A stretch of 64,000 nt of DNA. Origin: Candidatus Hodarchaeota archaeon (GTDB taxonomy: Archaea > Asgardarchaeota > Lokiarchaeia > Sigyniarchaeales > SOKP01). Below the pieces are notes generated by a model. The model did no database searches. It worked only from the letters and a program-made list of their open reading frames with translations, and was not told where the DNA came from. Shown here piece by piece: positions 19,846 through 64,000 of the stretch (position 1 is its first letter; the number at the start of each line of letters is the position of its first letter). Made by a program: the position numbers and the translations under genes. The stretch is from the NCBI GenBank assembly GCA_048886685.1, contig JBHLKM010000012.1:102702-166701 (forward strand), read 5' to 3'.

Positions 19846-19861
19846 AGGGGATATATATAAT

Positions 19862-20644
19862 ATGATTGTGGCTGGATGTGATGTTGGTTCTTTAACTGGT
19901 AAAAGCGTTATCTTAAGTGATGGTGAAATTTTGTCTTATAGTATCGTCCCAACAACACCAAAACCGGAAAAAACTGCTTTAAATGCTATGAATGAGGCTC
20001 TTGAGAAGGGTAGTCTAACATTAGATGATATTGATTATATTGTTGGAACGGGTTATGGGAGAGTGAAAATACCTTTTGCAAATTTTGAAATATCTGAATT
20101 AACGTGCCATGGTAAAGGAGCTCATTCCTTTATTCCGTCAATTAGAACAATAATAGATGTTGGTGGACAAGATTGCAAAGTAATAAAAGTAGATCCAAAG
20201 GGAAAAATCCTTGATTTTGCAATGAATGATAAATGTGCAGCTGGAACAGGGAGATTTTTAGAAGTTATGGCTAAAACTCTTGAATTAAGCCTTGATGATT
20301 TAGGATATATATCACTAGAATCAAAAAAACAGGCTAAAATTACAGCTCAATGTAGTGTGTTTGCTGAAACAGAAGTAGTAAGTCTGATGGCAGATGGAGT
20401 AGAAGTTGCTGATATAGTGGCTGGAATACATGATGCTATCGCTTCTAGAATTATGTCTCTTGTATACAGAGTTGGTCTCGAAGAAGAGTTAACAATTACT
20501 GGAGGAGTAGCAAAAAATATTGGTGTAGTTACTTATCTTGAGAAAAGATTGGGTGTAAAAGCTAAAAAGTTGCCAGTCGATCCACAAATAATTGGAGCCT
20601 TAGGAGCTGCTCTAATAGCAAAAGAAAAACTAAAATCCCAATAA
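19862..20644 (+). CDS. ATP-dependent activator (HgdC/BadF/BcrAD ASKHA ATPase)
   Basis: GCDVGS, GTGYGR, IDVGGQD, MNDKCAAGTGRFLE, CSVFAE, GGVAKN. Confidence 0.93.
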   Translation: MIVAGCDVGSLTGKSVILSDGEILSYSIVPTTPKPEKTALNAMNEALEKGSLTLDDIDYIVGTGYGRVKIPFANFEISELTCHGKGAHSFIPSIRTIIDVGGQDCKVIKVDPKGKILDFAMNDKCAAGTGRFLEVMAKTLELSLDDLGYISLESKKQAKITAQCSVFAETEVVSLMADGVEVADIVAGIHDAIASRIMSLVYRVGLEEELTITGGVAKNIGVVTYLEKRLGVKAKKLPVDPQIIGALGAALIAKEKLKSQ

Positions 20645-20700
20645 TTCTTTTTTTTATATTTTTATTTTACTCTATAAAAAATAAAATAATAAAAAAAATT
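20645..20700. terminator. Probable bidirectional oligo-T terminator region between convergent genes
   Basis: T-runs just after the stop at 20644 and A-runs just before 20712. Confidence 0.45.
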
Positions 20701-20711
20701 GTTTAAACTTA

Positions 20712-21953: not shown

Positions 21954-21954
21954 T

Positions 21955-44087: not shown

Positions 44088-46034
44088 CTACATTGATAAT
44101 TCTCCGAAAATCTCGTTAACTATAGCTCCAAGTAAAGGTGAACTATTTACATTTAATTCCTGAAAAGATTTAGCTGCTTTATTTAACATGTCCCAGATCT
44201 CTTTTTTATTTCTAATAGAATCTGAGAATTTATTCAATTTCTTTATGGCAGGATACGACTGTCCTTTACTGACGTAACAAGCTACAAAAGGCTCAACAGG
44301 TCTCATAGAGATAATATTTTCCCCAATTTTAATACGATCAATAGCTTTTGCAAAGATCTCAGAACTAAAAGCATTAAAAGCTGAGATAAAAGAGCTAAAA
44401 AGGTCACTGTAATCCCAATCTTTAATAAACGTATGATTGAAAAAAGAATTTCCAGCTTCACTCATTATTATAAGTAATATAGGATCTTCTTCAATCAAAT
44501 CTGGTGGTTCTATCATCTTTTTGCCCATCATATGATCGAGAGTTTTATCTATTTCAACAAATTTTAATCGTTCCTCTACAGGGGTGTCAGCTTTTAGCAA
44601 ATTTTCCCATTTTTCAAGCTGTTGTAATAATTTATCATGTTCGGTTGAAATTGCTCTAGCTAATAAGTGAAGTCCATGCTCATCCGCTATTCGCTCAGCT
44701 TTAGTGAATAACTGTCTTGCATCTCCCATATTCCTTTGAATTAATGCCAATTTACCTTGTAAGAGACTAGTTTCTGCCATCAAACGAAAAGAATGTTGAT
44801 AATCAGAATATTCGGATAATCGTTTAATAAGGAGATTAATCTCTTGCAATACTTCTTGTTTATTATATTTTTGTAGTTCAAGCAAGAAAATATCACATAA
44901 GTGAAGAAGTGCACGTTCGGTGAATTCCCAATTGATGATCTCCTCTTCAACGACCTGTCGAAGTATTTTTTTAGCTTCTTCTTGATCCAGAGAATTTAGA
45001 CTCATTTTTAGTAACAATGCTTCATTTACACGGCACGCCACATCAGCCATCTTATTTTTTTCTTGTTCGTTGATTTGTTGCATGCGTAATAAATACTGCT
45101 CTGCTTGCTTAAGAGAATAAGCATCTAGAGAAACAATAAAAAGAGAATCTAGACCAGCTATTAATCTTATTTTATCATCTAACTCTTCCCAAATCGTAAG
45201 ATTTCGATTTAGAACTTCCATAGCACGATCCAAATTCCCCTTTTGCCGGTATATTAATGAAGAATTATTAAGACATTGTGCGATGAAACTTTTGTTGCCT
45301 ATTTCTTCAGTAAGTGCTAAGCTCTGCTTTGTATATTCTAAAGCAAGGTCTAATTCACCTATTATACCGTGTATTACCCCGAGATCTTTAATGGTTCTCC
45401 AATCATCGCGTTTGCGGTAAGTTCTTTGAATTTTTAGACATCGTTCCATATAATCCATGGCTCGATCCAAGTTTCCAGTGTTAAAATAATATATACTATT
45501 AGTTTGTAAAGCTCGTGCTATTTCCTCATAGTTATCATGCTCCTCAGAAATTTTTAGGCTCTCTTCCCCATATTCCAAGGCTTTATCTATATTATGATCT
45601 TTATAAAAAGAAATTCTACTTTTGACTAATTTTAAAACAGCGTTTCTTTTTGCAAAGTCTGACAGTGATATATTAGTAAGTTGTTTAAGTAGATTTTCTC
45701 CTTTTGATAATAAATCTAATATTGCATCAAAATCTCCTAAATCCAATAAAATCCAGCTCTTAGAAATATAACTATCAATTAGGAAGGATTTGTTTCCGAG
45801 TTCTTGACTCATACTACAAGCCTGATCAGCAAATTTCAGAGCATCAGTAGATTGTCCAAGCTCATAAAAGATATTACTCTTTAATATTTGAGAAAAAAGT
45901 CGCTCTTCAGGAGTGAGATCAATTTTTTGTTCGAAATCTTCTAAAGCATTAAGAGATTTTAAATATAAACCTTCTTTAAAAAGTAAGTTTACACTTTGTA
46001 ATTTTTCACTAATTAAATCTGAGATTGGAATCAA
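44088..46034 (-). CDS. TPR (MalT/NAP-like) protein with C-terminal longin-like domain
   Basis: Repeated TPR-like helices; C-terminal LLIIMSEAGNSFF...LFSSFISAFNAFSSEIF. Confidence 0.75.
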   Translation of the reverse strand: MIPISDLISEKLQSVNLLFKEGLYLKSLNALEDFEQKIDLTPEERLFSQILKSNIFYELGQSTDALKFADQACSMSQELGNKSFLIDSYISKSWILLDLGDFDAILDLLSKGENLLKQLTNISLSDFAKRNAVLKLVKSRISFYKDHNIDKALEYGEESLKISEEHDNYEEIARALQTNSIYYFNTGNLDRAMDYMERCLKIQRTYRKRDDWRTIKDLGVIHGIIGELDLALEYTKQSLALTEEIGNKSFIAQCLNNSSLIYRQKGNLDRAMEVLNRNLTIWEELDDKIRLIAGLDSLFIVSLDAYSLKQAEQYLLRMQQINEQEKNKMADVACRVNEALLLKMSLNSLDQEEAKKILRQVVEEEIINWEFTERALLHLCDIFLLELQKYNKQEVLQEINLLIKRLSEYSDYQHSFRLMAETSLLQGKLALIQRNMGDARQLFTKAERIADEHGLHLLARAISTEHDKLLQQLEKWENLLKADTPVEERLKFVEIDKTLDHMMGKKMIEPPDLIEEDPILLIIMSEAGNSFFNHTFIKDWDYSDLFSSFISAFNAFSSEIFAKAIDRIKIGENIISMRPVEPFVACYVSKGQSYPAIKKLNKFSDSIRNKKEIWDMLNKAAKSFQELNVNSSPLLGAIVNEIFGELSM

Positions 46035-49015: not shown

Positions 49016-49060
49016 TTAAAGCAAAACTTTAAATTCATTATATGACCAGAAGAACTTACT

Positions 49061-50419
49061 ATGGTTGAAAAGGAGCTTATACAATCTTCTCTCCATTTAA
49101 TTGACAATTGGTTAGATTATCAAGTATACATTAAGGAGATTCCTGGGCTTGCAGTGGGAATTGCCTTAGAAAATGAATTGATATTTAAAAAGGAATATGG
49201 ATATGCGAATCTGGAAAAGGAGGAAAAGTTAACTGATCAACATCTGTTTCGGATTGCATCCCATTCTAAATTGTTTACAGCAACAGCAATAATGATGCTC
49301 TATCACGAGGGAAAGTTATCAATTGATGATAAAGTCTCGAAATATTTACCCTGGTTTCAATCAGTAGAAGATAAAGAATTAGCACGCATTAGAATTCAGC
49401 ATTTATTAACACACTCAAGTGGAATAACTCGGGATGGTAATACAGGTCATTGGCTAAACTTCAAATTTCCTACGCTGGAGGAGATTAAAGCACAATTCCA
49501 AGAAAAAATCCGCTTTTTTGAACCAAGTGAAACGTTAAAATATTCTAATTTTGGATACGTGCTCTTAGGACAAATTATCGAGGAAGTATCAGGACAGAGT
49601 TATCAAGATTTTATTCAAAACCGCATACTTTCACCATTAGGAATGCAAAATACTGTTTTAGACGTAGATGATACTAATTTAGCTAACCATGCCACGGGAT
49701 ATAAACGTCGGTGGCCAAATCAAAAAAGAAAATCTTTTAACCACATACCCGCGAATGTCATGAGGGCAGCTACAGGACTAAGCAGTACTGTAGAAGATTT
49801 AACAAAATTTTATCAAGCTCACATGTTTGGTAATGAAATTTTAATCCCTGATTATATCAAGCGAGAAATGCAGAGAACCGAGTTTAAAGAATTTGAAGGT
49901 GAGTATGGATTTGGATTTTTTTTGCAAAAAATTGGAGAATCAACTCTTGTTGGTCACGGTGGAGGTTATCCTGGCTTCGTCACGCAATCCGGCTTAATTC
50001 AAGATCAGAAAATCGTAGTTGTAATTTTAAGTAATGCGGTAGATGGTTCTGCTGATATTCTCCTAAATGGTATTGTTGGAATTCTCAATAAACTCAAGAA
50101 AGATAAAGAGAAATTCTTGGTAAAAGAACAAGAGGATAGGTCAGACTTTTCTAGCATAATAGGTTTTTATGGAAGTGGTGATTGGGCTACACCTCTCTAC
50201 AGTCAAATTGGATCAAAATTGGTATCGATTGCTCCTGGATTAGATAATCCAATAGAATTTTTTATAATTTATGAACATGATCAAGGTTTTAAATTTATCA
50301 TTCCGAAGGGTTTTCCTTGGTCAGGTCAGCCTTTCGAGTTTATAGATGGACTTAAAGGAGAAAAAATCTTAATTGATGCTCACAAAGGAAAATTATTCCG
50401 ATTTTACTTTAAATATTAG
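49061..50419 (+). CDS. Serine hydrolase, beta-lactamase class C / D-aminopeptidase family
   Basis: SxxK (ASHSK), LLTHSSG, YSN, HGG. Confidence 0.9.
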   Translation: MVEKELIQSSLHLIDNWLDYQVYIKEIPGLAVGIALENELIFKKEYGYANLEKEEKLTDQHLFRIASHSKLFTATAIMMLYHEGKLSIDDKVSKYLPWFQSVEDKELARIRIQHLLTHSSGITRDGNTGHWLNFKFPTLEEIKAQFQEKIRFFEPSETLKYSNFGYVLLGQIIEEVSGQSYQDFIQNRILSPLGMQNTVLDVDDTNLANHATGYKRRWPNQKRKSFNHIPANVMRAATGLSSTVEDLTKFYQAHMFGNEILIPDYIKREMQRTEFKEFEGEYGFGFFLQKIGESTLVGHGGGYPGFVTQSGLIQDQKIVVVILSNAVDGSADILLNGIVGILNKLKKDKEKFLVKEQEDRSDFSSIIGFYGSGDWATPLYSQIGSKLVSIAPGLDNPIEFFIIYEHDQGFKFIIPKGFPWSGQPFEFIDGLKGEKILIDAHKGKLFRFYFKY

Positions 50420-50480: not shown

Positions 50481-50574
50481 TTTCCATTGAATTTTTATGA
50501 AAATCAGACTCTAAATTTACCTTTCCAGCCCAATTTTCAATATAATTGGTACAAAATTTAAAAGGGCTCGATCC
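50481..50574 (+). repeat. Dispersed intergenic repeat copy R1 (degenerate, near full length)
   Basis: ...gaaaatcagactctaaatttacctttccagcccaattttcaatataattggtacaaaatttaaaagggctcgatcc aligns to R7. Confidence 0.8.
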
Positions 50575-50708
50575 TTGTTCTGTTTCCCTGAAATCTAATT
50601 CATTTTTGAATATAGTATTTCTCCGAATGTAATTTTATTGTATTTTTCATAGTGAAAATGAGATACAAAAAAAGGAAAAATTAAAAAGTCAAAAGATTAT
50701 TATGGGGA

Positions 50709-51017
50709 TTGGGACACATGAATATCTATGAGAAATTTATGAATGAAACTATATGTGCCATAATGAATATAATCAGATATGAATATAGATCAATAATAAC
50801 TGTAAAAAAAATTAGAAATTTCTATAATATTACGTCCATAGATAACTCTAAAATTAATTTTTATTGGAGATGTCTGCAATCTCTTGAAGAAACTGGAATT
50901 TTGAGGAGATATGGGCCTAAAAAGCCAAGAAAATATCGAGTTCTCAATTTTTTTAAACTATTTGAACTATTTCATGACACTTACGTTAATCAGGGAATGC
51001 TTACCAAAAATTTATAG
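50709..51017 (+). CDS. Small hypothetical protein, possible wHTH
   Basis: 102 aa; LQSLEETGILRR...PRKYRV resembles a recognition helix plus wing; lies between R1 and R2. Confidence 0.5.
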   Translation: MGHMNIYEKFMNETICAIMNIIRYEYRSIITVKKIRNFYNITSIDNSKINFYWRCLQSLEETGILRRYGPKKPRKYRVLNFFKLFELFHDTYVNQGMLTKNL

Positions 51018-51044
51018 TTAAATCTCATTGCCATTTAGTATTCC

Positions 51045-51103
51045 TTTACCTTTTCATTTCAATTTCACAGACAATTGGGACTAAATTTAAAAAAGCTCAA
51101 ACC
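51045..51103 (+). repeat. Repeat copy R2 (3' half only)
   Basis: tttaccttttcatttcaatttcacagacaattgggactaaatttaaaaaagctcaaacc. Confidence 0.78.
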
Positions 51104-51270
51104 TTCAAAAGAAAACCTTAAATTCATTATAAGACCAGAAGAACTTACCATGGTTGAAAAGGTATTAATAAACTCATCTCTCCATTTAATTGACAATTGG
51201 TTAGAGTATATATTAAGGAGATTCCTGGACTTGCGGTGGGGATTGTCGTAGAAGATGAATTGATATTTAA
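51104..51270 (+). pseudogene. Duplicated upstream region and 5' end of the 49061 serine hydrolase, frameshifted and truncated
   Basis: Aligns to 49014-49188; ATG at 51150; 7-nt deletion (ttatcaa) after ...tggttaga. Confidence 0.9.
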
Positions 51271-51280
51271 CTTATTCTGA

Positions 51281-52423
51281 TTAAAAACTCCTTCCGATTA
51301 TATTAATCCAATTAAGAATGAAATCTAATGCTAATTTTCTATTACCAACTTGACAATGATTCGCCCCATATTCTATTTCCGTAAATAAACGACACGTCAG
51401 AGATTTTACGTTTTTCAATGCTTCTATTTGTTTATAAAACATCTCGATTGGTATAAAATGATCTTTCGAACCAGCTAACAATAAGACGTCCTGTGTGATT
51501 TTATTAGAAATTTCCGCACATGTAAATAGCCTTACTTTTTTTATATATTCATAAGGCGTATTAACCCCCATGACACACATCCCATGGTTCACACCCCAGT
51601 TTGCGATTAAGCTTGTTTTCATGCTGTCATACATGATTTTATTTATAATCTCAACCTCGTTCTGATCAAGCAAATTTTTAAACATGTCTTGAGCTCTATT
51701 TCCCCCGGCATGAAGGATGACATGAAAGAAATCATAAATAATACCAAATACGACAACTCTTGTTATTCTTGGCTCAAAAGCAGCAGCTCTAAGACATAAA
51801 TAGCCACCTAGCGAGATTCCTATTAAGATAATATCAGTTAATCCAAAGAAATCGAGAACGACTTTCATCGGCTTTTCCCATTCATGGGTCATGTACAATT
51901 TATTTTTAATACGTGCTCCTCCTTGACCTGGACCCTCGAAGATAATAACTTCATATCCTGCATCTTGGATATAAGACCCCATAACGTATAATTCTTCTAA
52001 GAAGCTATCATAACCCCCAAACATTATAACAGTATCCTTTTTTTCATCATTTTTCAGGTGAAATGCGGGCAAAAATGAATCCTCATATGGAATTTCAATC
52101 CTTTGATTTTTGGCACTTTCATATATCTGATAAAATAGCTCAATAAATTTATCATAGAGTTGTTCCTTATCTGGATCGTCCGGTGAAGTAAAAAATTCTG
52201 CTGATCTATATGACATAGCAGCAGTGGGTAAATTGCCCTCCTTTAATGCTTTATCTGCGATTCTAAGGGTCTCTCGTTTCCAATCAGAGAAATCTTTTAT
52301 TTTGGGGGCTATTTCTTTTACATCTTCGATATTTACTCCATTTGCTATCAATTTATTCAGTTGGAAGTTGATATTTGGCAGCTCATGCAACTCATAATAT
52401 CCGACTGTAAAGTTATAATTCAC
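51281..52423 (-). CDS. Alpha/beta hydrolase (FrsA/DHPON-hydrolase-like)
   Basis: GGYDS, EGPGQG, GISLGG nucleophile elbow, HCQVGN. Confidence 0.85.
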   Translation of the reverse strand: MNYNFTVGYYELHELPNINFQLNKLIANGVNIEDVKEIAPKIKDFSDWKRETLRIADKALKEGNLPTAAMSYRSAEFFTSPDDPDKEQLYDKFIELFYQIYESAKNQRIEIPYEDSFLPAFHLKNDEKKDTVIMFGGYDSFLEELYVMGSYIQDAGYEVIIFEGPGQGGARIKNKLYMTHEWEKPMKVVLDFFGLTDIILIGISLGGYLCLRAAAFEPRITRVVVFGIIYDFFHVILHAGGNRAQDMFKNLLDQNEVEIINKIMYDSMKTSLIANWGVNHGMCVMGVNTPYEYIKKVRLFTCAEISNKITQDVLLLAGSKDHFIPIEMFYKQIEALKNVKSLTCRLFTEIEYGANHCQVGNRKLALDFILNWINIIGRSF

Positions 52424-52551
52424 GTTTTATCACTCTTTAATAACATGATTAATAATTAAATGAACTTAGATGAAACTAAAATAGTAAATTAAATTTAATA
52501 AGTCTAATTATATCTAAAAGGTTAATATATAATTACATTACAAATAAACAC

Positions 52552-53346
52552 ATGTCAACAATTTATTTTACCAAAAATCCAGATAGAAAAAGATTTGTAG
52601 CATCATTACTATCTAGGTTAAGAAGTAATATTGAAGGAAAAGTGCTTATAAAAGTGAACCTTGTTTCATATAATCATTACCCTACAACAACTCATCCCGA
52701 AATGATTGAAGCCGTATATGATCAAATCAAATTGAACGCTTCAGAAATTATTTGTGGAGATGGTCATGGTGTAGACGTATCTACAAAAAAAATAGAAAAT
52801 CATCCAATAATAGAAAAATGTAAGGAATTAGGTATTTCTTTCGTAAATTTCTATGAACATTCTTTCAAAAAGATAAAAACCTCTCGAAATTTTACATTAA
52901 AAGTCTCTGAAATTCCATTTCAGCAGGATTTTATAATTTCTCTTCCAATTTTAAAGGATCATTTTATTTTAAACCTTACTAATGCTCTGAAAGATAAATT
53001 TGGATATTTATCAAAGACCGAACGAATAAAAATGCACACCAAGATCAAAAATATTAACAAAGGAATTGCTGAATTAAATACTGTACTTAAATCTAATTTA
53101 ATTATATGCGATGCCTTGAAAGTTTTAGTAAAAGCCCAAGAAGTTAGACATGGGGGAAAAGAAAAAAATCTGGGTTATCTTTTTGCTGGAACCGATCCCG
53201 TTGCCTTAGATTATTACGGATATAAGCTATTACGACCAATTTCGATAAAATTGGAAAACATAGATAATCCACTACAAATAAAATATATAAAATATGCTTT
53301 AGATTATGGAATTGGGTCTAAGGATTATAATTTGGAAGAAATTTAA
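52552..53346 (+). CDS. DUF362 domain protein
   Basis: VLIKVNL, TTHP, ISLPILKDH, ALKDKFG, DPVALD. Confidence 0.82.
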   Translation: MSTIYFTKNPDRKRFVASLLSRLRSNIEGKVLIKVNLVSYNHYPTTTHPEMIEAVYDQIKLNASEIICGDGHGVDVSTKKIENHPIIEKCKELGISFVNFYEHSFKKIKTSRNFTLKVSEIPFQQDFIISLPILKDHFILNLTNALKDKFGYLSKTERIKMHTKIKNINKGIAELNTVLKSNLIICDALKVLVKAQEVRHGGKEKNLGYLFAGTDPVALDYYGYKLLRPISIKLENIDNPLQIKYIKYALDYGIGSKDYNLEEI

Positions 53347-53355
53347 TTCTTTTAC

Positions 53356-53390
53356 TCATTGAAATCAGACTTTGAATTTACAATTTGGGA
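53356..53390 (+). repeat. Repeat copy R3 (internally deleted)
   Basis: tcattgaaatcagactttgaatttac joined directly to aatttggga. Confidence 0.7.
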
Positions 53391-53408
53391 TTTTCTGTTA
53401 AAATTTTT

Positions 53409-55478
53409 TTATCCAAGATTATTGTAAAATTCTACAACTTTTTTATAATTCGGATTAATATCCAAAGCTTTTTTACACCTCTCACGGGATTTGTCATCAT
53501 CTCCCAGGGCTAAGTATATTTTTGCCAGATAATAATAAGCAGGAACATAATTAGGATTGATTTTTAAAGCACGCCTTATATATTCTAGACCTTTATCATA
53601 TTCTTCTAACCCGCAATAACCAAATCCTATTTCGTTTAAGGAATCTATATGATTAGAATCAATCTTTAGTACATGATTACATGCCTTAATTGCTTCATGA
53701 TATTCACCACTATTATTAAAAATATAGGCTGATGTGCTCCAACCTTCTTTGAAAAATCTATCACGCTTTAACGCTTCATTACAAGTCTTTTTGGCTTCAG
53801 AAAGATTACCCTTATTACTTAAAACATGTGCTAGTAAAAATAAACTTGATTTTGAATTTTGATCAATCTCTAAAGCTTTCGTACAGTATTCAATAGCCAA
53901 ATCAAACTTTTCATTTAATTCATGTATTGATCCTAAAACAATCCAAGTATCTGGAAATTTTGAGTTGATATTAATCCCTTTTTCGCATAATTTGATAGCT
54001 TTATCATATTCTCCTTTATCTCTATAATTAGCAGCAATAGAATTTAGGGCAGGTATATAATTTGGGTTAATCTGTAAAACCTTTTGGTAAGATTCCAACG
54101 CTTCTTTACTTTTTCCAATTGAATCAAACGATCTACCTCTCAAAACTAAGGCTTCGAGCCTATCTGGGTCTAATTCCAAAGTAATGTTGCATTTATCTAT
54201 TGCTTCTTCAAATTTGCTCATATTGTAATAAATTGTAGCTAAAATAAACCAGACTCCAATGAACTCGAAACCTCTATCTTCGATTCTATTTACATATTCG
54301 AGCGCTGTATCATAATCAAAGATATAACTATAGTTTAATGCTAAAAACGCTAATGCTAGAATATAATTTTCATCGATTTCCAAAGCTTTTCTACATGCTT
54401 CCATTGCTTTTTCATAATTATTTAATTTAACATTAATGTTGTTATGTAAAATCCATGCACCTTTAGAGTTCGGGTTCAATTTTAACGCCTTATTCGCAGA
54501 ATCTATAGCCTTTTCATAATCATAATTATAAAAATAATTGAAACCAAGATTTGTCCATAAAATTTCATTATCTGGTTCAATTTCTACTGCATGCATAGCT
54601 GCTTCTATTGCCTCTTCTAATTTATAAATTCTTTCATAACACCATGAAAGGTTGCTCCACACAGAAAAATATTCACCTGGAATATTTAATGTGTGTTTCA
54701 GAAGTACAATGGCTTTTTTATATTCTTTATTATACATGAGTTCTAAGGCAATTTCTTCCCAGGCAGTGACATTGTTTGGATTAAATTCAAGATCAAGTAT
54801 ATTCTTATACGCATTAATGGCTTGGTCATTTTCATTCAAGGACAAATAAGCAGAACCAATTCCTTTCCATGCTTCTGAATATGAGGGATTTAGATTTACA
54901 GCCTTCCTAAAAACCTCAATTGCCTTCTTATACTCTTTACAGAATGAGTATGCATCACCTAAATTCGTCCAACTTGTTATTATATAAGGATTTAATTCTA
55001 TCGATTGCTTAAAAGCATTAATCCCCTTATTATATTCACCATTTTTTACATATGATTTACCAAGATCCTCCCAAATATATGGATCTTCCGGATATTTCTC
55101 TAATAAAATCTTATAAGCTAATATTGAGTGAATATATTCACTAATATCGATACAAAGTTTGCCTATCTGCTTCCAAATATCTTTTTCTTCAATGTTGATA
55201 CCTATGAAATTTCTGTAAGCTTGTATCGAATTGTTATCTTCACATTTACCAAAGCTAATTGCGCGATGTGCTATACCTGAATCAAGCTCTAACGCATTAT
55301 TATAATACTCTTTTGCTTTATCAAGTATATACAACTTGTTATATGAGAGGGCTATATATAGATAGCTAACTGTTCTACTTGGATTTAATGCTAAATCACG
55401 TTTGAAGGCATCAACTGCTTCACTAAATTTCGACTTTAAAAATGATTTCTTGCCTTTGCTAAACCATTTATCTTTCAT
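53409..55478 (-). CDS. Multi-TPR protein
   Basis: More than 15 TPR units (W.NLG...A...Y.KA..LNP); start ATG 55478 or TTG 55508. Confidence 0.9.
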   Translation of the reverse strand: MKDKWFSKGKKSFLKSKFSEAVDAFKRDLALNPSRTVSYLYIALSYNKLYILDKAKEYYNNALELDSGIAHRAISFGKCEDNNSIQAYRNFIGINIEEKDIWKQIGKLCIDISEYIHSILAYKILLEKYPEDPYIWEDLGKSYVKNGEYNKGINAFKQSIELNPYIITSWTNLGDAYSFCKEYKKAIEVFRKAVNLNPSYSEAWKGIGSAYLSLNENDQAINAYKNILDLEFNPNNVTAWEEIALELMYNKEYKKAIVLLKHTLNIPGEYFSVWSNLSWCYERIYKLEEAIEAAMHAVEIEPDNEILWTNLGFNYFYNYDYEKAIDSANKALKLNPNSKGAWILHNNINVKLNNYEKAMEACRKALEIDENYILALAFLALNYSYIFDYDTALEYVNRIEDRGFEFIGVWFILATIYYNMSKFEEAIDKCNITLELDPDRLEALVLRGRSFDSIGKSKEALESYQKVLQINPNYIPALNSIAANYRDKGEYDKAIKLCEKGININSKFPDTWIVLGSIHELNEKFDLAIEYCTKALEIDQNSKSSLFLLAHVLSNKGNLSEAKKTCNEALKRDRFFKEGWSTSAYIFNNSGEYHEAIKACNHVLKIDSNHIDSLNEIGFGYCGLEEYDKGLEYIRRALKINPNYVPAYYYLAKIYLALGDDDKSRERCKKALDINPNYKKVVEFYNNLG

Positions 55479-55885
55479 TTTCCTTATAATTAAATTAAGG
55501 TTTCTCAATTATATAAGATTTAAATACCCAGATCTACATGTATCTAACAGTATAGAAATATTAGAAGATATTAATCCACTAATCACATAAATTATTAAAT
55601 TTTCAGAGGAGTAAGAATGTTTAAGTAGGATTTATCTTCAATTGAATTAATTAGATTTTCACATTTTAAAAAATTTTAAAAGGTTTTTTATTTTCTTCAA
55701 ATATACAATCTTTTGGGTATTTTAGATAATTTATGACAAATATGTAAATCTTTATATAAGAATCATTTTTTGATTATAATTAGGAAAATAATCTACTAGA
55801 AAGAAAACCAATGTAAAAATTAAACATCAATTAGCTTAATTGAAATAATTTTCAAATAATATCAATAAAAAGGTGTATATTTGAT

Positions 55886-56263
55886 TTGTCGTTCCAAGAA
55901 AATATTGATAGGTTAGGAAAATTAGTCCCCGTATATGTAATCTCGTTTTTAGGCGCTGTTTCGTCATTTTTTCAACTATTTTACGAAGAAGACCCAATAT
56001 ATGCTAGATTAGCTATAATTATCATTGTAGGAATTAGTGTAATACTTACCTTGGTAATTGAGCTGGTAGTTCTAAAAAGAAAAAAAATAATACAAATTAT
56101 TATCGCAATAATAAGTGGAGCTCTATGGATCTTCTTTATTAATTTGCGATTTTTCGATTTCGAGAATATATGGGAATTAACTATCCAATTTGTGACTACA
56201 ATATATACTTTCCTAATAGCTCTCTTTTCTCAATATTTAACTGAAGAAGAAAATGGGAATTAG
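55886..56263 (+). CDS. Small 4-TM membrane protein
   Basis: Four hydrophobic segments; KLVPVYV motif; upstream AAGGTG. Confidence 0.6.
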   Translation: MSFQENIDRLGKLVPVYVISFLGAVSSFFQLFYEEDPIYARLAIIIIVGISVILTLVIELVVLKRKKIIQIIIAIISGALWIFFINLRFFDFENIWELTIQFVTTIYTFLIALFSQYLTEEENGN

Positions 56264-56353
56264 GGTAATCACATTTTAAATTAATTTTTTTTTCCTATTT
56301 AAAGGGATATTAAATAGTCTCAAACTTGCTGCACAATATAATCAAAAAGGAAT

Positions 56354-56398
56354 AAATTTGCCTTTCTATTCCGATTTCACTGAAATTTGGGACAAAAT
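56354..56398 (+). repeat. Repeat copy R4 (3' hairpin part)
   Basis: aaatttgcctttctattccgatttcactgaaatttgggacaaaat. Confidence 0.7.
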
Positions 56399-56476
56399 GT
56401 AATATTTTTATTATCTTAAAAATTAAGAGAAAGAGAAATATAAATTCATAATAAAAAAATTTTTGTGAATCAGATT

Positions 56477-57259
56477 ATGCCAAAAAAGTTAGTAGGAGAT
56501 ATAAAAATATATTATGAAATCACTGGTGAAGGTGAACCATTATTACTTATTCATGGGTTAGGCTCTAGCACACGGGATTGGGAAGAAAATATTCCTATTT
56601 TTTCTAAAAAGTATCAAGTTATTACTGTGGATATTCGTGGACATGGAAAAACAGATAAACCTAAAGGACCATATAGTATAAAAAATTTTGCTAAAGATAT
56701 TGCTGAACTATTAATGTCATTAGGACTCAGTTCTGTAAATGTTCTAGGGGTCTCTTTGGGTGGAGCAGTTGTTATTCAACTCACAATTGATTATCCAGAA
56801 CTAATAAAAACTCTGGTAATCGTAAACGCAGCTCCTACCTCTGGAGATCTTTCTTTGCTTGAACAAGTTATCAATGGCAGGATAGAACTTATTAAGGTTA
56901 AAGGGATGAGAGGTATGGGTGAAACATTAGCTCCCGTGTTATTTATAAAACCTGAACAAGAAGAATTGCGTAAGAAATTCGTTGAGAGATGGGCTGAAAA
57001 TAATAATGAAAGCTACATAAATGCTTTGAAATCTCTCATAACATGGAATGTTAGTGACAACCAGCTTCATACAATTAAGTGTCCAACATTAGTTCTTGCA
57101 TCTGATGAAGATTATACTCCAGTTTCTGTTAAAGAAGAATTAGTAAAGAAAATTCAGAATTCTCATTTAGTGATTATTAATGATGCTAGACATGCTGTTC
57201 CTATGGAAAAACCTGAAGAGTTTAATGCTGCAGTAATGGAGTTTTTATTAAAATATTAA
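56477..57259 (+). CDS. Alpha/beta hydrolase (3-oxoadipate enol-lactonase-like)
   Basis: LIHGLGSS, DIRGHG, GVSLGG, ARHAVPMEKPEEFN. Confidence 0.88.
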   Translation: MPKKLVGDIKIYYEITGEGEPLLLIHGLGSSTRDWEENIPIFSKKYQVITVDIRGHGKTDKPKGPYSIKNFAKDIAELLMSLGLSSVNVLGVSLGGAVVIQLTIDYPELIKTLVIVNAAPTSGDLSLLEQVINGRIELIKVKGMRGMGETLAPVLFIKPEQEELRKKFVERWAENNNESYINALKSLITWNVSDNQLHTIKCPTLVLASDEDYTPVSVKEELVKKIQNSHLVIINDARHAVPMEKPEEFNAAVMEFLLKY

Positions 57260-57294
57260 TTAGTTATTAAATTTGTTTTGCTCGTATTAATTCC

Positions 57295-57870
57295 TTAGAC
57301 TCTGAATATGTCATATTCAGCTGTATTGTGTAAAAAGAACTTTTTTTCAGCTTTATAAGGAGGATAAGAAAATAATTCGATATGGGATATCTTCGCTATG
57401 AAAGGATTCTTAATCTGTAAATCAAGATAATTTTGGGAAAGTTCCACTGCTTTAGATATTTCTTGAGTTGGGAGCTCTAATAAAAGAGTCACATGTGGGC
57501 TCCACATACTATCTGGATTTCGATCCAAAACTACTCCTTGGTTTTCCAATGTCTCCAAACAGAGTTTTCTTAAAGAATGAAGATTGCTTGAATATTTTGG
57601 ATTTAGATAGAAAACATGGGTGGCAGGAAACGTAGTTAAACCAGTAAATTCAAGTGAAAAGGAGTTATATCTTGAAATTGCAGATTCCAATGCATCATAA
57701 TATTCTTGTTTTCTTAATTCTTCATGTTCAAATAATGTTATGTGGGGTGGTACTCGCACATATGCTCGACCATGCAAATCTGGGGAATCATTCAAAACTT
57801 TCCGTAATTCTATCAACCTTTTAGTTGATTGATCATCAAAGCAAACGATTATTCCAGTCCAAAAATCCAT
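57295..57870 (-). CDS. 2H phosphoesterase (2'-5' RNA ligase-like superfamily)
   Basis: Two HxT motifs: PHITL and PHVTL. Confidence 0.82.
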   Translation of the reverse strand: MDFWTGIIVCFDDQSTKRLIELRKVLNDSPDLHGRAYVRVPPHITLFEHEELRKQEYYDALESAISRYNSFSLEFTGLTTFPATHVFYLNPKYSSNLHSLRKLCLETLENQGVVLDRNPDSMWSPHVTLLLELPTQEISKAVELSQNYLDLQIKNPFIAKISHIELFSYPPYKAEKKFFLHNTAEYDIFRV

Positions 57871-57947
57871 GTTTCTTAAATTAAATAATCTAATTTAATT
57901 ATATTAATTTTAAATTAATAACTACTTGAAAATTAATGAAGAAATGG

Positions 57948-57989
57948 CTTCTTAAAACCTTTTGTACTATAACGTCAATTTAAGATTTT
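57948..57989 (+). repeat. Left-arm motif L1, homologous to the sequence immediately 5' of R8
   Basis: cttcttaaaaccttttgtactataacgtcaatttaagatttt versus tttccttaaaagcctttggtactataatttcgatctaagatt at 63881. Confidence 0.65.
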
Positions 57990-58097
57990 GGGTGTAAGCT
58001 GGGGCTAAATTATTTATATGATTCTATAATAATTACTAATTAAAATCCTAATGAGTGAAATTTACCAAGAAAGAGTAATTTAAATTATATTAAACGA

Positions 58098-59627
58098 ATG
58101 AGAGAAATTATGGAAGTAATGGCTATTATTGAAACAAAGACTGGAAAATTACAAGGTTATAGCGAAAAGGGTGTGGAAGTATATAAAGGAATTCCATATG
58201 CTGAACCTCCGATTGGCGACTTACGATTTCTCCCACCTGTTGCGAAAGAACCTTGGGATGGAGTGCTTGATGCCACTAAATATGGTCCTTGTTCGTTTCA
58301 AGGATATAACCAATTTGCAGATTGGTATGAGAAACTTGAACCAGAAAGTGAAGATTGTTTGACTCTTAACATTTGGACACCTGGAGCAGATGATGAGAAA
58401 CGACCCGTATTGTTTTGGATACATGGGGGAGGTTTTACTGCGGGAGGAGGTAAACAGGAATTTACGGAAGGTTTAGCCTTAGCTAAACGAGGAAATGTCG
58501 TAGTAGTTACCATCAACTATCGGTTAGGATTATTAGGTTTTTCATATATTCCAGATGTTACTATAAATGCTGGGATACTGGATCAAGCTCTTGCGCTCAA
58601 ATGGGTGCATGATAATATTGAAGCTTTTGGTGGAGATCCTAAAAATATCACCATATTTGGTGCGTCAGCCGGAGGTTATTCCGTGTTAATGTTACCTGTC
58701 ATGCCGCAAGCTAAAGGGCTTATTCGACGAGTAATCGCTGAAAGCGCTCCTAGGATTAACTCAGAGGTAAGTGATAAAAGTACAAGGGCTGTCATGCGTA
58801 AATTAAAAATTAAAAAGGGAGATATTGAATCATTGCGTAAAATCCCTCCTGAAAGAATCATTGAAGCACAGAATGAATATGTAGAATCAGATCCAACCAA
58901 TCTCATTGCCTTTAGGCCATTAATAGATGGTAATACGATCCCTAAACATCCTTTAAAAGCATTCCAAGATGGAGATTTAAAAAACATCGATTTTTTGATA
59001 GGAACAACCCTAAATGAAGCAAAAATCCTTGTCTCTCTAGATCCAAGAATGAATGAAATGGTAAAAGCTGCTGGAGAAAATGCTATTTTAGCTTTATTGG
59101 GCACTACGGGATTAGATATGAATAAAAGAAGAGAAATTATAGACATCTATAAAAGTGCAAGGAGAGGAAAGTTTCCCATACAGCCCATTGATTTATTGGA
59201 TGCGGTCGGAACTGATTCTCTGATTCGTATCCCCACAATACGTCTCCTTGAAGCTCAATCAAAACATCAACCTAATACCTTTAATTACATGTTTAACTTC
59301 ACCTGTCCACTATTCGATGGCGCTCTCGGTTGTCCCCATGCATTGGAAGTACCATTTGTTTTTAACACATTAACTGCTACAGGCATTCCTAAATTAATCG
59401 GACAAGGTCCTGATATTGAGAATCTTAGTGAAAAAATGATGAATGCTTGGATTGCTTTTGCTCATACTGGAAATCCAAATCATGCTGGAATTCCTGAATG
59501 GACTTCATATGATAGTATAAATAGAGCAACTATGTGCTTTGGAAAAGAAATCAAAATTGTAAATGCTATTTTTGATGAAGAAAGAAAGGCTTGGGATGGG
59601 ATCTCTTCGGATCTCTTCGAAATTTAA
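58098..59627 (+). CDS. Type B carboxylesterase (PnbA-like)
   Basis: GIPYA, SEDCLTLN, WIHGGGF, FGGDPKNITIFGASAG, HALE. Confidence 0.93.
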   Translation: MREIMEVMAIIETKTGKLQGYSEKGVEVYKGIPYAEPPIGDLRFLPPVAKEPWDGVLDATKYGPCSFQGYNQFADWYEKLEPESEDCLTLNIWTPGADDEKRPVLFWIHGGGFTAGGGKQEFTEGLALAKRGNVVVVTINYRLGLLGFSYIPDVTINAGILDQALALKWVHDNIEAFGGDPKNITIFGASAGGYSVLMLPVMPQAKGLIRRVIAESAPRINSEVSDKSTRAVMRKLKIKKGDIESLRKIPPERIIEAQNEYVESDPTNLIAFRPLIDGNTIPKHPLKAFQDGDLKNIDFLIGTTLNEAKILVSLDPRMNEMVKAAGENAILALLGTTGLDMNKRREIIDIYKSARRGKFPIQPIDLLDAVGTDSLIRIPTIRLLEAQSKHQPNTFNYMFNFTCPLFDGALGCPHALEVPFVFNTLTATGIPKLIGQGPDIENLSEKMMNAWIAFAHTGNPNHAGIPEWTSYDSINRATMCFGKEIKIVNAIFDEERKAWDGISSDLFEI

Positions 59628-59726
59628 TATTATCTTAATTTTTTTTTATCTTTAGGCTAGCTTTTTTTAATTTAGTGCTGTATCTGGTATACAGAAATAA
59701 TCTAATCTTCTTACATTTTCTTTCGC

Positions 59727-59779
59727 TTTTTCAAAGGAATTTTCATGGAACTCAGACGCTGAATTTACCCTTCATGAAA
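59727..59779 (+). repeat. Repeat copy R5 (5' core)
   Basis: tttttcaaaggaattttcatggaactcagacgctgaatttacccttcatgaaa. Confidence 0.9.
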
Positions 59780-59822
59780 GAAAAAGAAGTTGCTATCAAT
59801 TCTTTTTTGAAGTATGTGCTGG

Positions 59823-61595
59823 TTATATTCTTAATTTTCCGTCAATTAACTTCTGATGATAATTCTCTTCAAACTTGATATAAAGGCCCTTAATAGAATC
59901 CCAAAAGAAAAGAGGATCTCTTACTTTAGAAATATCATACCCTTCTTTGCGAAGATTCGTTTTTGTTATTTTTAAAGAACCTGTTAAAGCCAACTCTTCC
60001 CTGATCCTAAGGAAGATTGGAATGGAATATTTAGGCAAAGATTCCACAACGAATTTAGAAAAGTCCTCAATATCAAATTCTGATTCTGATTTCAACAGTA
60101 CCGAAGCCATTCCGGTTTTTCCTTCCGTGTTAGGTATAGAAACACCATATACAGCGCTTGTTTTGATATCAGGATGTGAATTTAGAATTGTTTCTATCTC
60201 CAATGTGGATACATTTTCTCCCTTCCAGCGATAAGTATCACCATATCGATCCCCAAATGAAAGCCAATTATTATCATGTAAGTGCATAAGATCCCCAGTT
60301 ATCATATAAGCATCATTCTCCTTAAAAACTCCCGTCAGCATTTTTTTGTTAGTCTCTTCTTTTTGTGTATATTTTTCGAAAGTATTATAATTCTCTACTT
60401 TCAGTAACAACATACCTATTTCCCCAGACTGACATTTGATACAAAAACCGGAATTATTTTTGTAAAATTCTCCTGATTCAGGATTAATCTTAATTAAAGC
60501 ATGAGTATCTGGGTTCATGCGACCTACCATTCCTGGGATCTCATCTGCGTTAAAAATAGGACCGAATGCTTCTGTAGCACCGTAAAACTCATAAATATGT
60601 TCGATATTAAACCTTGATTTAAATTGGTGCCAGATTTCTTCTCTTAATCCCATCCCGAGTAGTCTCTTAAGTGTATGATTCTTTTCTTCTTCAATCTCAG
60701 GTTGATTTAAGAGGTACCGCGGGATTTCACCAATGTATATTGTAAATGTAATCTTATATTTTTGCACATCTTTCCAAAATTGTGATGCTGAGAATTTCTT
60801 TTTAAGAACCATCGCAGCTCCAATGTGAACTGCCCCTACCCAAACCACTACTGCTAAAGAATGATATAAAGGTGTAGTTAAATAGACAACATCTTCAGAA
60901 CTTACTCGAGAAAAAGCATGCATATGGAATATTCCACCCCCTACTCCATTAACAATAATAACCGCTTTAGGAAGCCCTGTTGTCCCTGATGTATAAATAT
61001 ATACCGCTTTATCATCCGGATGGGAATTCATGGTTGTCTTGGGATTATCCCTCGAGACTGAATGTAATTCTTCTTTTAAAATTATATAATCATTATAATC
61101 ATGAGCTTTGGTTTGATGAGCATTAATAACAAAGATACGACTTTTTTTAATTGAGAGATCGGATATAACTTCATGTAGTGATGGTAAGTTGGTTCCATCA
61201 ACGATTATCCATTTGGGGTTAACAATATTTATAGCATGAACTAATGCTCGTTTTTTTTGATTAGTATTAACTAGGGCGCTAATTCCCTGTATTTTGTTTA
61301 TTCCTGTTGTAATAAAAAGATATTCAGGAGAATTTTCTAAGATCAAAGCAACAACATCTCTAGGTTTCAAACCTACACTAAGAAAATAATTAGCATAAGT
61401 ATTACTTTCTTCATTAAATTGCCTCCAGGTCCAGGATTTATCTTCGAAAAATAATGCTTTTTCATTTGGCATTTTTTTTGATGTATTTTCAATAAGATTC
61501 CCCACACCTATTAGAGAATTTTTCTCTGCTCTATCAAATTCCTCCAAAAATCTCTTCCTTACTTGCATTTCTTTTGGTGTTAGCTCCAAGGGCAT
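59823..61595 (-). CDS. Long-chain acyl-CoA synthetase (FATP/FadD6-like)
   Basis: YIYTSGTTGLPKA, EFYGATE, GDTYRWKGENVST; start at ATG 61595 behind AGGTGA (the longer ORF runs into repeat R6). Confidence 0.92.
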   Translation of the reverse strand: MPLELTPKEMQVRKRFLEEFDRAEKNSLIGVGNLIENTSKKMPNEKALFFEDKSWTWRQFNEESNTYANYFLSVGLKPRDVVALILENSPEYLFITTGINKIQGISALVNTNQKKRALVHAINIVNPKWIIVDGTNLPSLHEVISDLSIKKSRIFVINAHQTKAHDYNDYIILKEELHSVSRDNPKTTMNSHPDDKAVYIYTSGTTGLPKAVIIVNGVGGGIFHMHAFSRVSSEDVVYLTTPLYHSLAVVVWVGAVHIGAAMVLKKKFSASQFWKDVQKYKITFTIYIGEIPRYLLNQPEIEEEKNHTLKRLLGMGLREEIWHQFKSRFNIEHIYEFYGATEAFGPIFNADEIPGMVGRMNPDTHALIKINPESGEFYKNNSGFCIKCQSGEIGMLLLKVENYNTFEKYTQKEETNKKMLTGVFKENDAYMITGDLMHLHDNNWLSFGDRYGDTYRWKGENVSTLEIETILNSHPDIKTSAVYGVSIPNTEGKTGMASVLLKSESEFDIEDFSKFVVESLPKYSIPIFLRIREELALTGSLKITKTNLRKEGYDISKVRDPLFFWDSIKGLYIKFEENYHQKLIDGKLRI

Positions 61596-61685
61596 TTTCT
61601 CACCTGTTTTTAATATCGATTCTATGGATTTAATATAGATTATAGCTCCCTTATATTTAAATCCACTGAATAAAATAGAGATTAG

Positions 61686-61738
61686 TTTTTTCACTAAATT
61701 TTAATTGAAATCAGACGCTGAATTTACCTTTTACGAAA
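61686..61738 (+). repeat. Repeat copy R6 (5' core)
   Basis: ttttttcactaaattttaattgaaatcagacgctgaatttaccttttacgaaa. Confidence 0.85.
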
Positions 61739-62120
61739 TTTTTACCTTAACAATTTTTATTTCTTTTTTTTATAGATATTAAACGGGAGTTAAAATTATA
61801 CACTTGGATCAGTGGAGAGCCGTCTATATAAATCATTTTTTTCAAAAAGGCAAATACCAGGATAATGATAACTATAAAATTTAATTTTAGCTTTTAACTT
61901 AGATTAGGTTGAATTTTCAATATATTTTTCACACACTTTTGATAATAGGAAATTCACCAATTTAAAGTAATTAATATTTCCTCCTATTAATTAAATTTAA
62001 TATAATTGGTGGACAATTTTTTTTGTTAAAGATAATAAATAAATATTTGAACGGTGCATGCTAAGTTAAATTTACAATATGCAAGAATAAATGAAAATAA
62101 AATAGAGGAATGGAACAAGA

Positions 62121-63017
62121 ATGGGAATTATTTACAAATTTTATGAACCTGATAATGATTATGAGCAGATTCAAGCCGATTTATACAATAATGCCATTGG
62201 AAAATATGGAACCCCAGGAAATGCAACAGCTGACCAGATCAAAGAAAGATATAGGGTCGAAGGTTTTGATAATAAAGGTGTCCAATATGCATTTGATGAT
62301 GATAAGCCAATTGCATATATTCAAACAAGGAAAGTAGTCGAAACAAAACAGGTTTATATCGGATATCCTTGGTCAACAACTGATTGTCCTGAAGAAGTTA
62401 AGGATGAGATGTTCAAAAATATGGTAAATTATCTATATACACGTGATTCTGAATATAAAATAGTTTGCGGGGTAATCCAAGATTCCTGGACGGATGTACG
62501 GGATTTTTTAAAAAAATACAATTGTACTGTAGAAAACGAGTATAAAACTTACCTTTTGGATATTACAAACCTTAGTAAACTCGATAATAGTGGTTATACC
62601 TCTAAAATCGGAACTTCTGATGACGAGGAGGCACTTTTTGAATTATGCATGTCTGAACCCGGTTTCAGTGATACCTTTCCAAATGAAGAAGCAGTGAAAA
62701 TTTTTGTTAAAGACGTCCTTAAGGAACTTGAAACTATACTTATTTACAAAAATGATGAGTTAGTATCCTCTGGCGCAGTTTTTTCTTATGAACCAGATAG
62801 AAATAATATTATTAATACACGATTTACAGCTACAAGAGATTATAAGTTCGAGTATTGGAAGGCATACGTTATTGAAATAGCTAAAAGATTAAGAAAGAAA
62901 GGTTTAGATGGAATGAAATTTACCTTATTTGATCGTCAACCAGAATATTTAGAATTTTATGATAAATATTCTTCAGGTTCTAGGACTGGATTTATATATG
63001 CAGTTCCGAAACCTTGA
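62121..63017 (+). CDS. Hypothetical protein, possible tandem GNAT fold
   Basis: 298 aa, two-domain alpha/beta pattern; no clear acetyl-CoA motif A. Confidence 0.45.
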   Translation: MGIIYKFYEPDNDYEQIQADLYNNAIGKYGTPGNATADQIKERYRVEGFDNKGVQYAFDDDKPIAYIQTRKVVETKQVYIGYPWSTTDCPEEVKDEMFKNMVNYLYTRDSEYKIVCGVIQDSWTDVRDFLKKYNCTVENEYKTYLLDITNLSKLDNSGYTSKIGTSDDEEALFELCMSEPGFSDTFPNEEAVKIFVKDVLKELETILIYKNDELVSSGAVFSYEPDRNNIINTRFTATRDYKFEYWKAYVIEIAKRLRKKGLDGMKFTLFDRQPEYLEFYDKYSSGSRTGFIYAVPKP

Positions 63018-63185
63018 ACGCTTTGAAAAATTTTTCAAAACTCAATAATTTTTCTCTTCTTTTTTTTTCTTTAATAATATCTAAAAAGAGTGATGATTAA
63101 AAATGGTATAATCAAATCAAAATGTTAAATATTCATAACCTTAGGAGAAATCTCATTGATTACGGTCTAAAGATTTAAAATTTTT

Positions 63186-63280
63186 TTTTCAAAGGAATTT
63201 TCATTGAACTCAGACGCTGAATTTACCTTTCCATTCTAATTTCACAGAAAATTGGGATAAAATTTATAAAGACTCGAATC
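63186..63280 (+). repeat. Repeat copy R7 (most complete core plus 3' hairpin)
   Basis: ttttcaaaggaattttcattgaactcagacgctgaatttacctttccattctaatttcacagaaaattgggataaaatttataaagactcgaatc. Confidence 0.93.
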
Positions 63281-63310
63281 AGTTATAGAAATTTTATAAA
63301 CTTCATTTTC

Positions 63311-63829
63311 CTAAGCTAGGTTTTCTGAGTTATCCCAATACCATAAGTGATCGCAATAATCATCTCCCTGCATCAATGTCTTATTTCTCCTAAGCTTAAC
63401 ACATGGATTACACGCCCTTGCATAAGCATGATCAGGGTTACAGACAACAAGATACCCAATATCCTCGGCTTCAAGCTCTTTAAACACCTCAGCATCAAGA
63501 CACTCAGTAACATGCAATCCCAGTTCTGACTCAGTATCCTTCACGTATCTGATAGTTACCCTGTTCCTGATCTCAATGGACTCATTGTCCTCTTTCTCTA
63601 TCCGTATAAAATCAGCGAACTCGTTAACGGGTCCAATTTCTTGAAGCTCTTCTGTAACCCAATTAAACATGTCTTCATAGAAGGTTTTTTCAACGATCTC
63701 GTGAACCCTTGCTTTACCAATTGTCTTCTCCATTTTTCTAACAAGGAGCACGAGGGGACGGTATTTCTCTGTAAGGTATTCTTTGTAGGTTAGCGTCTTT
63801 TTGCCTCGGTTGATGATTGACTCACTCAT
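63311..63829 (-). CDS. L-2-amino-thiazoline-4-carboxylate hydrolase family (ATC_hydrolase) protein
   Basis: VTECLDAEVF...IGYLVVCNPD...LRRNKTLMQGDDYCDH; about 42% GC in two 60-nt lines counted. Confidence 0.85.
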   Translation of the reverse strand: MSESIINRGKKTLTYKEYLTEKYRPLVLLVRKMEKTIGKARVHEIVEKTFYEDMFNWVTEELQEIGPVNEFADFIRIEKEDNESIEIRNRVTIRYVKDTESELGLHVTECLDAEVFKELEAEDIGYLVVCNPDHAYARACNPCVKLRRNKTLMQGDDYCDHLWYWDNSENLA

Positions 63830-63880
63830 GATATTGTGAAGGAAATGTGTAAGTTATTCTAATAAGTCCAAAAGGAGTAA

Positions 63881-64000
63881 TTTCCTTAAAAGCCTTTGGT
63901 ACTATAATTTCGATCTAAGATTGTTTTCAAAGGAATTTTCATTGAACTCAGACGCTGAATTTACCTTTCCAACCCAATTTCAAAGGAAATTAGAATAAAA
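63881..64000 (+). repeat. Repeat copy R8 with left arm L2, runs off the window end
   Basis: 63924-63971 is identical to 63186-63233 over 48 nt; followed by acccaatttcaaaggaaattag. Confidence 0.93.

What the first reader, a model, noticed from the sequence alone, without database searches (positions are those of the whole stretch)
50481..64000. Candidate gene-cassette array: 8 co-oriented non-coding repeats separating accessory genes, not attC-like
Seen: related repeats at 50481, 51045, 53356, 56354, 59727, 61686, 63186 and 63924. All are on the same strand and intergenic, and I saw no convincing copy in the first 50 kb. They delimit units of 1-3 unrelated accessory genes in mixed orientation: a small wHTH-like gene; an a/b hydrolase plus DUF362; a TPR plus membrane protein; an a/b hydrolase, 2H phosphoesterase and esterase; an acyl-CoA synthetase alone; the 62121 gene alone; the ATC hydrolase alone. 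Known: integrons build cassette arrays, including in archaea, but attC sites have RYYYAAC...GTTRRRY ends and their cassettes are usually co-oriented; neither holds here. Inference: the repeat may be the recombination or insertion site of an undescribed Asgard gene-capture system, with its enzyme outside the window. The alternative is a locally clustered MITE/REP-like element.
Basis: partly seen in the sequence, partly recalled or inferred. Interest (0 to 1): 0.88.

Follow-up and report, generated by a model that had tools for sequence, protein, structure and literature searches.

The report
Asgard recombinase-site gene cassette arrays
A short DNA site repeated about 50 times in this Loki-type archaeon marks the joints of small gene blocks that are swapped between species; it is most likely the attachment site of a small integrating element found intact in relatives, so it works like an integron without being one.

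Summary
The eight repeats are real, co-oriented and intergenic, but unequal: three full, three left-half, two right-half, all sharing one 13-bp stretch. The genome holds 50 copies in 13 clusters (36 of 37 neighbours co-oriented). The site occurs in 49/51 genomes of the genus and 38/42 of a second genus (Promethearchaeota). Flanks are exchanged inside the shared stretch, and at least four site-to-site units recur at 86-92% identity with different neighbours in different species, one across genera. In relatives the full site lies directly upstream of an RHH gene plus an intact XerA-like tyrosine recombinase, followed by a helicase and cargo: a 6-9 kb integrative element. This genome keeps only RHH stubs. 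It is not an integron (no attC ends; recombinase far below the IntI cut-off). Best reading: attachment sites of this element, accreted in tandem with non-autonomous cassettes, like CIME arrays but at many loci with gene-sized units. That the enzyme cuts this site is inferred, not shown, and most of this window's genes lack the site in other genomes. The scan noted a look-alike array in another genome (e1-5527114) and analogous arrays in bacteria.

The parts
50481..50574 (+). R1, full site: T-tract, variable 6 bp, 36-bp core (starts 50490), tail = stub of the region upstream of the RHH-recombinase operon
   Evidence: core 31/36, tail 39/49
50709..51017 (+). Small gene of unit R1-R2; an 80% identical homolog lies downstream of a co-oriented site in G011
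   Evidence: no Pfam hit
51045..51103 (+). R2, right-half site (end of core plus tail), attL-like
   Evidence: left 5/23, right 9/13, tail 44/49
51104..51270 (+). Truncated copy of the 5' end of the beta-lactamase-family gene (49018-49188); a third copy on contig C2 is joined to a site at the same break
51281..52423 (-). alpha/beta hydrolase (cargo)
   Evidence: PF00561
52552..53346 (+). DUF362 gene (cargo); 84-90% identical copies in 11 other genomes, none with the site directly after it
53356..53381 (+). R3, short left-half site without tail, attR-like
53409..55508 (-). TPR protein (cargo)
55886..56263 (+). 125-aa putative membrane protein (cargo); in G135 it lies two genes from the 62121 homolog
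56354..56403 (+). R4, right-half site plus tail, attL-like
   Evidence: left 5/23, right 11/13, tail 35/49
56465..59627 (.). Cargo: alpha/beta hydrolase (+), 2H phosphoesterase (-), carboxylesterase (+)
59727..59773 (+). R5, core without tail (core starts 59738)
   Evidence: 33/36
59823..61694 (-). AMP-binding (acyl-CoA synthetase-like) gene (cargo)
61686..61732 (+). R6, core without tail (core starts 61697)
   Evidence: 34/36
62121..63017 (+). 298-aa gene of unknown family; 95-96% identical DNA in G117 and G135; in G135 it follows a co-oriented site directly
63186..63280 (+). R7, full site (core 63196-63231; the 13 bp shared by all eight copies = 63219-63231)
   Evidence: 35/36, tail 44/49
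63311..63829 (-). ATC hydrolase gene (cargo); its upstream region is shared by 12 units that end at a site
63924..64000 (+). R8, full site cut by the contig end

Best explanation
The repeat is the attachment site of a small integrative element of Promethearchaeota. Intact elements (relatives only) read: site, RHH/coiled-coil/winged-helix gene, XerA-like tyrosine recombinase, a second conserved site X, an exchangeable helicase or ATPase gene, cargo, and a last gene whose first codons lie in the next site. Inferred mechanism: the recombinase exchanges strands in a 13-bp stretch (GAA, 7 bp, TTC). A circle enters a poor-match chromosomal site and leaves half sites (R2, R4; R3), or enters an existing full site. 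The non-palindromic overlap fixes orientation, so arrays grow co-oriented. Units that lost recombinase and helicase remain as gene-sized cassettes, moved when an intact element visits. SHOWN: site, clustering, exchange zone, shared units, linkage of site and operon. INFERRED: that this enzyme cuts it, circles, action in trans.
For: Co-orientation and clustering. Among 138 copies, 15 pairs share the left flank, 235 the right, none both; variants left of core position 23 follow the left flank, those right of 36 the right flank, bracketing the stretch common to all eight window copies. A GNAT unit in three species starts and stops in that stretch with different neighbours. Further site-to-site units: 91% identical between two genera (G136/G009), 92% (G099/G124), 86% (G001/G009). 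Same locus, different inner units in G009 and G015; array in G014 where this genome has none; G130 has an array with other cargo at this window's locus. Site or its tail directly upstream of RHH-recombinase in G117 (3), G129, G017, G144 and several metagenome contigs; catalytic R151 K175 H242 R245 H268 Y278 invariant. RHH stubs follow two copies in this genome. Complete site-to-site element of 6.3 kb in L099.
Against: No excision, circle or cleavage was observed. The recombinase was not found in this genome, and at E<=1e-40 only in 6/50 and 4/42 genomes of the two genera. Most window genes lack the site in other genomes. Some junctions break near the left end of the site (positions -10 to +9), not in the 13-bp stretch, and a variable 6-bp block there resembles a Tn916 coupling sequence. 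Site X is unexplained and absent here. The linkage test rests on 15 left-sharing pairs that are not independent. Site-flanked TPR paralogs are not one clade.
Confidence: 0.6

Rival explanations
1. Passive scars: the repeats are left-overs of repeated integration and decay of the same element; later shuffling is by homologous or slippage recombination between 40-90 bp repeats, not by a dedicated cassette reaction.
For: Tails stop at many positions, some inside the RHH gene; recombinase absent from most genomes; window genes mostly site-free elsewhere.
Against: The 36-bp core is about 85-100% conserved per position while tails decay; exchange is confined to positions 24-36; intact units appear in different arrays of different species and genera.
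Confidence: 0.22
2. The repeat is the left end of a Tn916-like tyrosine-recombinase transposon (right end = X, crossover in the variable 6 bp at positions -6 to -1) that often transposes one-ended and leaves orphan left ends.
For: Variable 6 bp between a conserved T-tract and the core; X ends sharply and could pair with the core's left arm; the beta-lactamase-family junction breaks near -1 in a target resembling the left end.
Against: The same helicase genes follow X at different loci, so X is not the outer end; the 6 bp and left core travel with the left flank; half sites R2 and R4 lack this part altogether.
Confidence: 0.1
3. The host XerA recombines the sites, as XerCD does with pdif modules; the linked recombinase is a passenger.
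For: Arrays persist in genomes without the element's recombinase; this genome's only PF00589 protein is a 315-aa Xer-type gene.
Against: No dif-like ATAA-N6-TTAT core in 122 copies; the site is tied to the element's operon and was not found in the other families searched; no copy near the host gene.
Confidence: 0.05
4. Ordinary MITE/REP element or a transcription-factor site.
For: Copies lie on 11 contigs, all outside genes of 100 aa or more.
Against: Strict co-orientation and clustering; flanking genes in all four orientations about equally, 13/12/11/10; flank exchange inside the repeat; no Y1 transposase, resolvase or reverse transcriptase found here; no Rfam match.
Confidence: 0.03

Closest known systems
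Tandem accretion of integrative elements and CIMEs (review PMC5704250; Dehalococcoides ssrA islands, PMC3146451)
   Same: Co-oriented att repeats separate autonomous islands (integrase module beside the left site, then cargo) and integrase-less islands; over a dozen repeats were seen downstream of ssrA.
   Different: There the target is one conserved host gene (tRNA, ssrA) and Dehalococcoides uses serine recombinases. Here the site is not a tRNA/tmRNA end, occupies 13 loci in one genome, units have a median of 1.5 kb, and most genomes lack the integrase.
Integrons and CALINs, including archaeal ones (PMC9668308)
   Same: Arrays of small accessory-gene units bounded by a co-oriented site, exchanged between species, often without an integrase in the genome; tyrosine recombinase.
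   Different: No attC ends; recombinase is 302 aa and scores 48.5 against a cut-off of 265 for IntI; genes in both orientations with their own upstream regions; half sites as from double-stranded att exchange.
Atabeyarchaeia integrative elements such as Yucahu-i (PMC11529989)
   Same: Asgard elements of 8-12 kb with a tyrosine integrase as first gene and a short AT-rich att repeat at both ends.
   Different: Described as single insertions; no arrays of orphan sites or gene-sized cassettes in the passages I read. Relatedness of the integrases was not tested.
Heimdallarchaeia aloposons (PMC8813620)
   Same: Asgard mobile elements carrying cargo.
   Different: Giant genes, ParA-like ATPase, tRNA targets; none of these here.

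Membership tests
Integron / CALIN | attC with RYYYAAC ... GTTRRRY ends | tested here: not met
   0 of 122 copies; IntegronFinder itself not available
Integron / CALIN | IntI-class integrase | tested here: not met
   TIGR02249 48.5 bits vs cut-off 265; aligns to XerA 5HXY without a long insertion
Integron / CALIN | Cassette genes mostly co-oriented | tested here: not met
   All four orientation classes about equal
Integron / CALIN | Site-bounded units shuffled between arrays | tested here: met
Integrative element / CIME tandem array | Direct att repeats bounding an element with its own integrase | tested here: met
   L050, L099; in relatives, not in this genome
Integrative element / CIME tandem array | Integrase-less units that keep both sites | tested here: met
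Integrative element / CIME tandem array | One conserved host target gene (tRNA, ssrA) | tested here: not met
   13 loci; only one copy within 3 kb of a detected tRNA, but only 14 tRNAs were parsed
Integrative element / CIME tandem array | Excision as a circle, integrase-dependent | not testable with these tools
   Only assembled contigs could be laid; no terminal repeats on element contigs
Xer/dif (pdif) modules | 28-bp dif site with ATAA-N6-TTAT core, alternating orientation | tested here: not met
   the Loki dif sequence is unknown to me, so this is a test against the general consensus
MITE / REP | Dispersed copies in random orientation | tested here: not met
MITE / REP | Target-site duplications | not tested
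   Right ends are variable, so no fixed boundary to test
Tn916-like transposon | Crossover in a variable 6-bp coupling sequence at both ends | tested here: inconclusive
   Variable 6 bp present but linked to the left flank; some junctions fall there

The most novel reading that the evidence does not exclude
An integron analogue of Lokiarchaeia: sites are kept by selection as standing landing pads in nearly all genomes of two genera, and single-gene cassettes are actively excised, exchanged across genera and re-integrated by a double-stranded tyrosine-recombinase reaction supplied in trans by a visiting satellite-like element.
Probability: 0.3. Interest if true: 0.87.

Novelty: new variant of a known kind. 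Interest (0 to 1): 0.72.

Why it matters
How Asgard archaea take up and rearrange accessory genes is largely open. This gives a defined site, a candidate 302-aa recombinase with a partner protein, and dozens of natural substrates in nearly every genome of two Loki genera, all testable in E. coli or in vitro. It also explains variable regions and many assembly breaks in these genomes, and integron searches cannot see it.

Tried and rejected
Rfam: no match. No viral contig holds the site or the recombinase. No resolvase, reverse transcriptase or Y1 transposase found in this genome. No RNA holder listed. Laying contigs of four runs: joints between repeat copies are uninformative; the joint 63250 to 62033 in two runs fits the G135-type arrangement as well as a circle, so it is not counted. 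Synteny breaks at arrays in G005 were set aside because that genome is scaffolded with N. AlphaFold model of the recombinase was poor, pLDDT 41; the RHH model gave only weak winged-helix matches. PADLOC found no defence system in ten element genes. Site-flanked TPR paralogs are not one clade, so they are cargo, not machinery. A retro-element reading (poly-A, truncated end) was dropped: no RT, and half sites of both kinds exist. A divergent site variant in G093 was found only beside its own two elements. Literature searches found no description of this site or element; the library lacks most subscription papers.
Full report
Observation. The window is the end of contig C12. A profile built from full copies finds 50 copies in the genome, none in the reversed genome and none earlier on C12. 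They form 13 clusters; 45 of 50 have a neighbour within 5 kb (random mean 5.2, maximum 16) and 36 of 37 adjacent pairs share a strand; in relatives 59 of 61 do. None lies inside a gene of 100 aa or more, and flanking genes occur in all four orientations about equally.

Anatomy. Over 109 copies the site is a T-tract, a variable 6 bp, a 36-bp core conserved at about 85-100% per position (except position 21), and a tail that stops at many places, most often right after the core. In the window R1, R7 and R8 are full, R3, R5 and R6 lack the tail, and R2 and R4 lack core positions 1-23; all share positions 24-36, which read GAA, 7 bp, TTC. An inverted trinucleotide around a 7-bp non-palindromic overlap is the layout of lambda-type att cores (my knowledge; inference).

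Range. The repeat was found in 17/17 genomes of the genus and in none of 12 from other families. A 28-bp pattern hits 49/51 genomes of the genus, 38/42 of a second genus and a few others, with zero control hits. Record titles name the hosts as Promethearchaeota.

Flanks are exchanged inside the site. Among 138 copies, pairs sharing the left flank (15) and pairs sharing the right flank (235) never coincide; non-consensus bases at positions -6 to 20 go with the left flank and positions 37-50 with the right flank. A GNAT gene unit in three species is about 90% identical from the 13-bp stretch of one site to just past that of the next, with different neighbours on both sides. Other site-to-site units recur: 91% between G136 and G009, which belong to different genera; 86% between G001 and G009; 92% between G099 and G124. 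A seven-copy array in a third genus carries relatives of the same cargo genes in another order. On unbroken contigs, G014 has a five-site array between core genes where this genome has none, G009 and G015 share outer units but differ in inner ones with the break at a site, and G130 has a co-oriented array with other cargo beside the same gene block as this window. Limit: most genes of this window occur elsewhere without the site, though the 50709 and 62121 genes follow a co-oriented site in G011 and G135.

The enzyme. The longest tails run into a gene with an RHH (NikA-like) start. In G117, G129, G017, G144, G093 and metagenome contigs this 172-aa gene is followed by a 302-aa tyrosine recombinase with all six catalytic residues, closest to XerA among solved structures but far below the XerA and IntI cut-offs. 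The family has 195 clusters, named only from Asgard bins among the rows shown. About 190 bp downstream is a second conserved sequence X, then an opposite-strand gene from one of three groups: SF2-helicase-like by language-model features (a lead only), D5-like primase-helicase by Pfam, or a P-loop ATPase. The last gene before the next site often begins inside the core on the minus strand; 12 of 119 copies have that frame open for 100 codons or more, mostly in intact elements. L099 holds a complete 6.3-kb site-to-site element and L050 a tandem of autonomous and non-autonomous units. This genome has only RHH stubs after two copies and no recombinase of the family, helicase or X; the recombinase was found in 6/50 and 4/42 genomes of the two genera.

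Mechanism. Most likely the repeat is this element's att site; integration into weak chromosomal matches leaves half sites, full sites attract further circles in one orientation, and deleted derivatives persist as cassettes mobilised in trans (0.6). That the enzyme cuts the site, that circles form and that trans action occurs are inferred. Rivals: passive scars shuffled by homologous recombination (0.22), a Tn916-like left end using the variable 6 bp, which some junctions favour (0.1), host XerA (0.05), MITE or regulator site (0.03).

Comparison. It works like an integron array but fails the attC and IntI tests (criteria from PMC9668308). It fits tandem accretion of integrative elements and CIMEs (PMC5704250; PMC3146451), except that there is no single host target gene, many loci are seeded and units are gene-sized (median 1.5 kb). 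Asgard elements described so far (PMC8813620, PMC11529989) do not show such arrays in the passages read. I found no description of this site. Earlier notes of this scan list a look-alike array in another genome and analogous non-integron arrays in bacteria; they are unchecked and were not used as support.

Verdict. Real, ordered and mobile; a new variant of a known kind with a testable enzyme-site pair. Interest 0.72.

Noticed in passing
L191:8298-9830, L099:587-1777, L050:14274-15791, L050:1934-3166: Three unrelated helicase/ATPase genes occupy the slot right after site X, with homology breaking at X: X may be a module-swapping site or origin. In G131 and G137, X itself is repeated.
   Followed up: partly
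L015:15798-17021, L113:12138-15779, L099:5903-7033, L059:1100-2347: Genes starting in or next to the site are mosaics sharing a peptidase S24/S26-like domain with variable ends (weak hits to a deaminase and to ubiquitin in two); one has the core in frame inside a 1213-aa ORF. Polymorphic-toxin-like shuffling is possible.
   Followed up: partly
window 63830-63920 and 11 other sites: A shared promoter-like upstream region on the minus strand precedes the site and serves unrelated genes (TPR paralogs, ATC hydrolase, others).
   Followed up: partly
window 44088-46034; L002:13604-15637: MalT-like TPR family with 32 paralogs in this genome; six are flanked by the site on both sides in the same orientation, and two such units are 82% identical from tail to site.
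   Followed up: yes
window 12784-23098: Paralogous gene blocks repeated at spacings of about 2646 and 7901-7910 bp, 71-79% identical.
   Followed up: no
G000 C15:111781-111930 (L002:15782-15931): A second small repeat follows some sites and occurs without them on C15 and C2.
   Followed up: partly
L188:11042-11610, L197:2053-3920, L115:7120-7871: Toxin-antitoxin-like pairs (RHH_12 with PemK, PIN, TumE) lie beside the recombinase in several elements.
   Followed up: no
window 63219-63231: The 13-bp stretch loosely resembles the 11-bp att motif reported for Atabeyarchaeia Yucahu-i (8 of 11 by eye; both AT-rich, may be chance).
   Followed up: no
G000 ends of C3 and C13: Tandem 288-bp repeats break the assembly there.
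   Followed up: no
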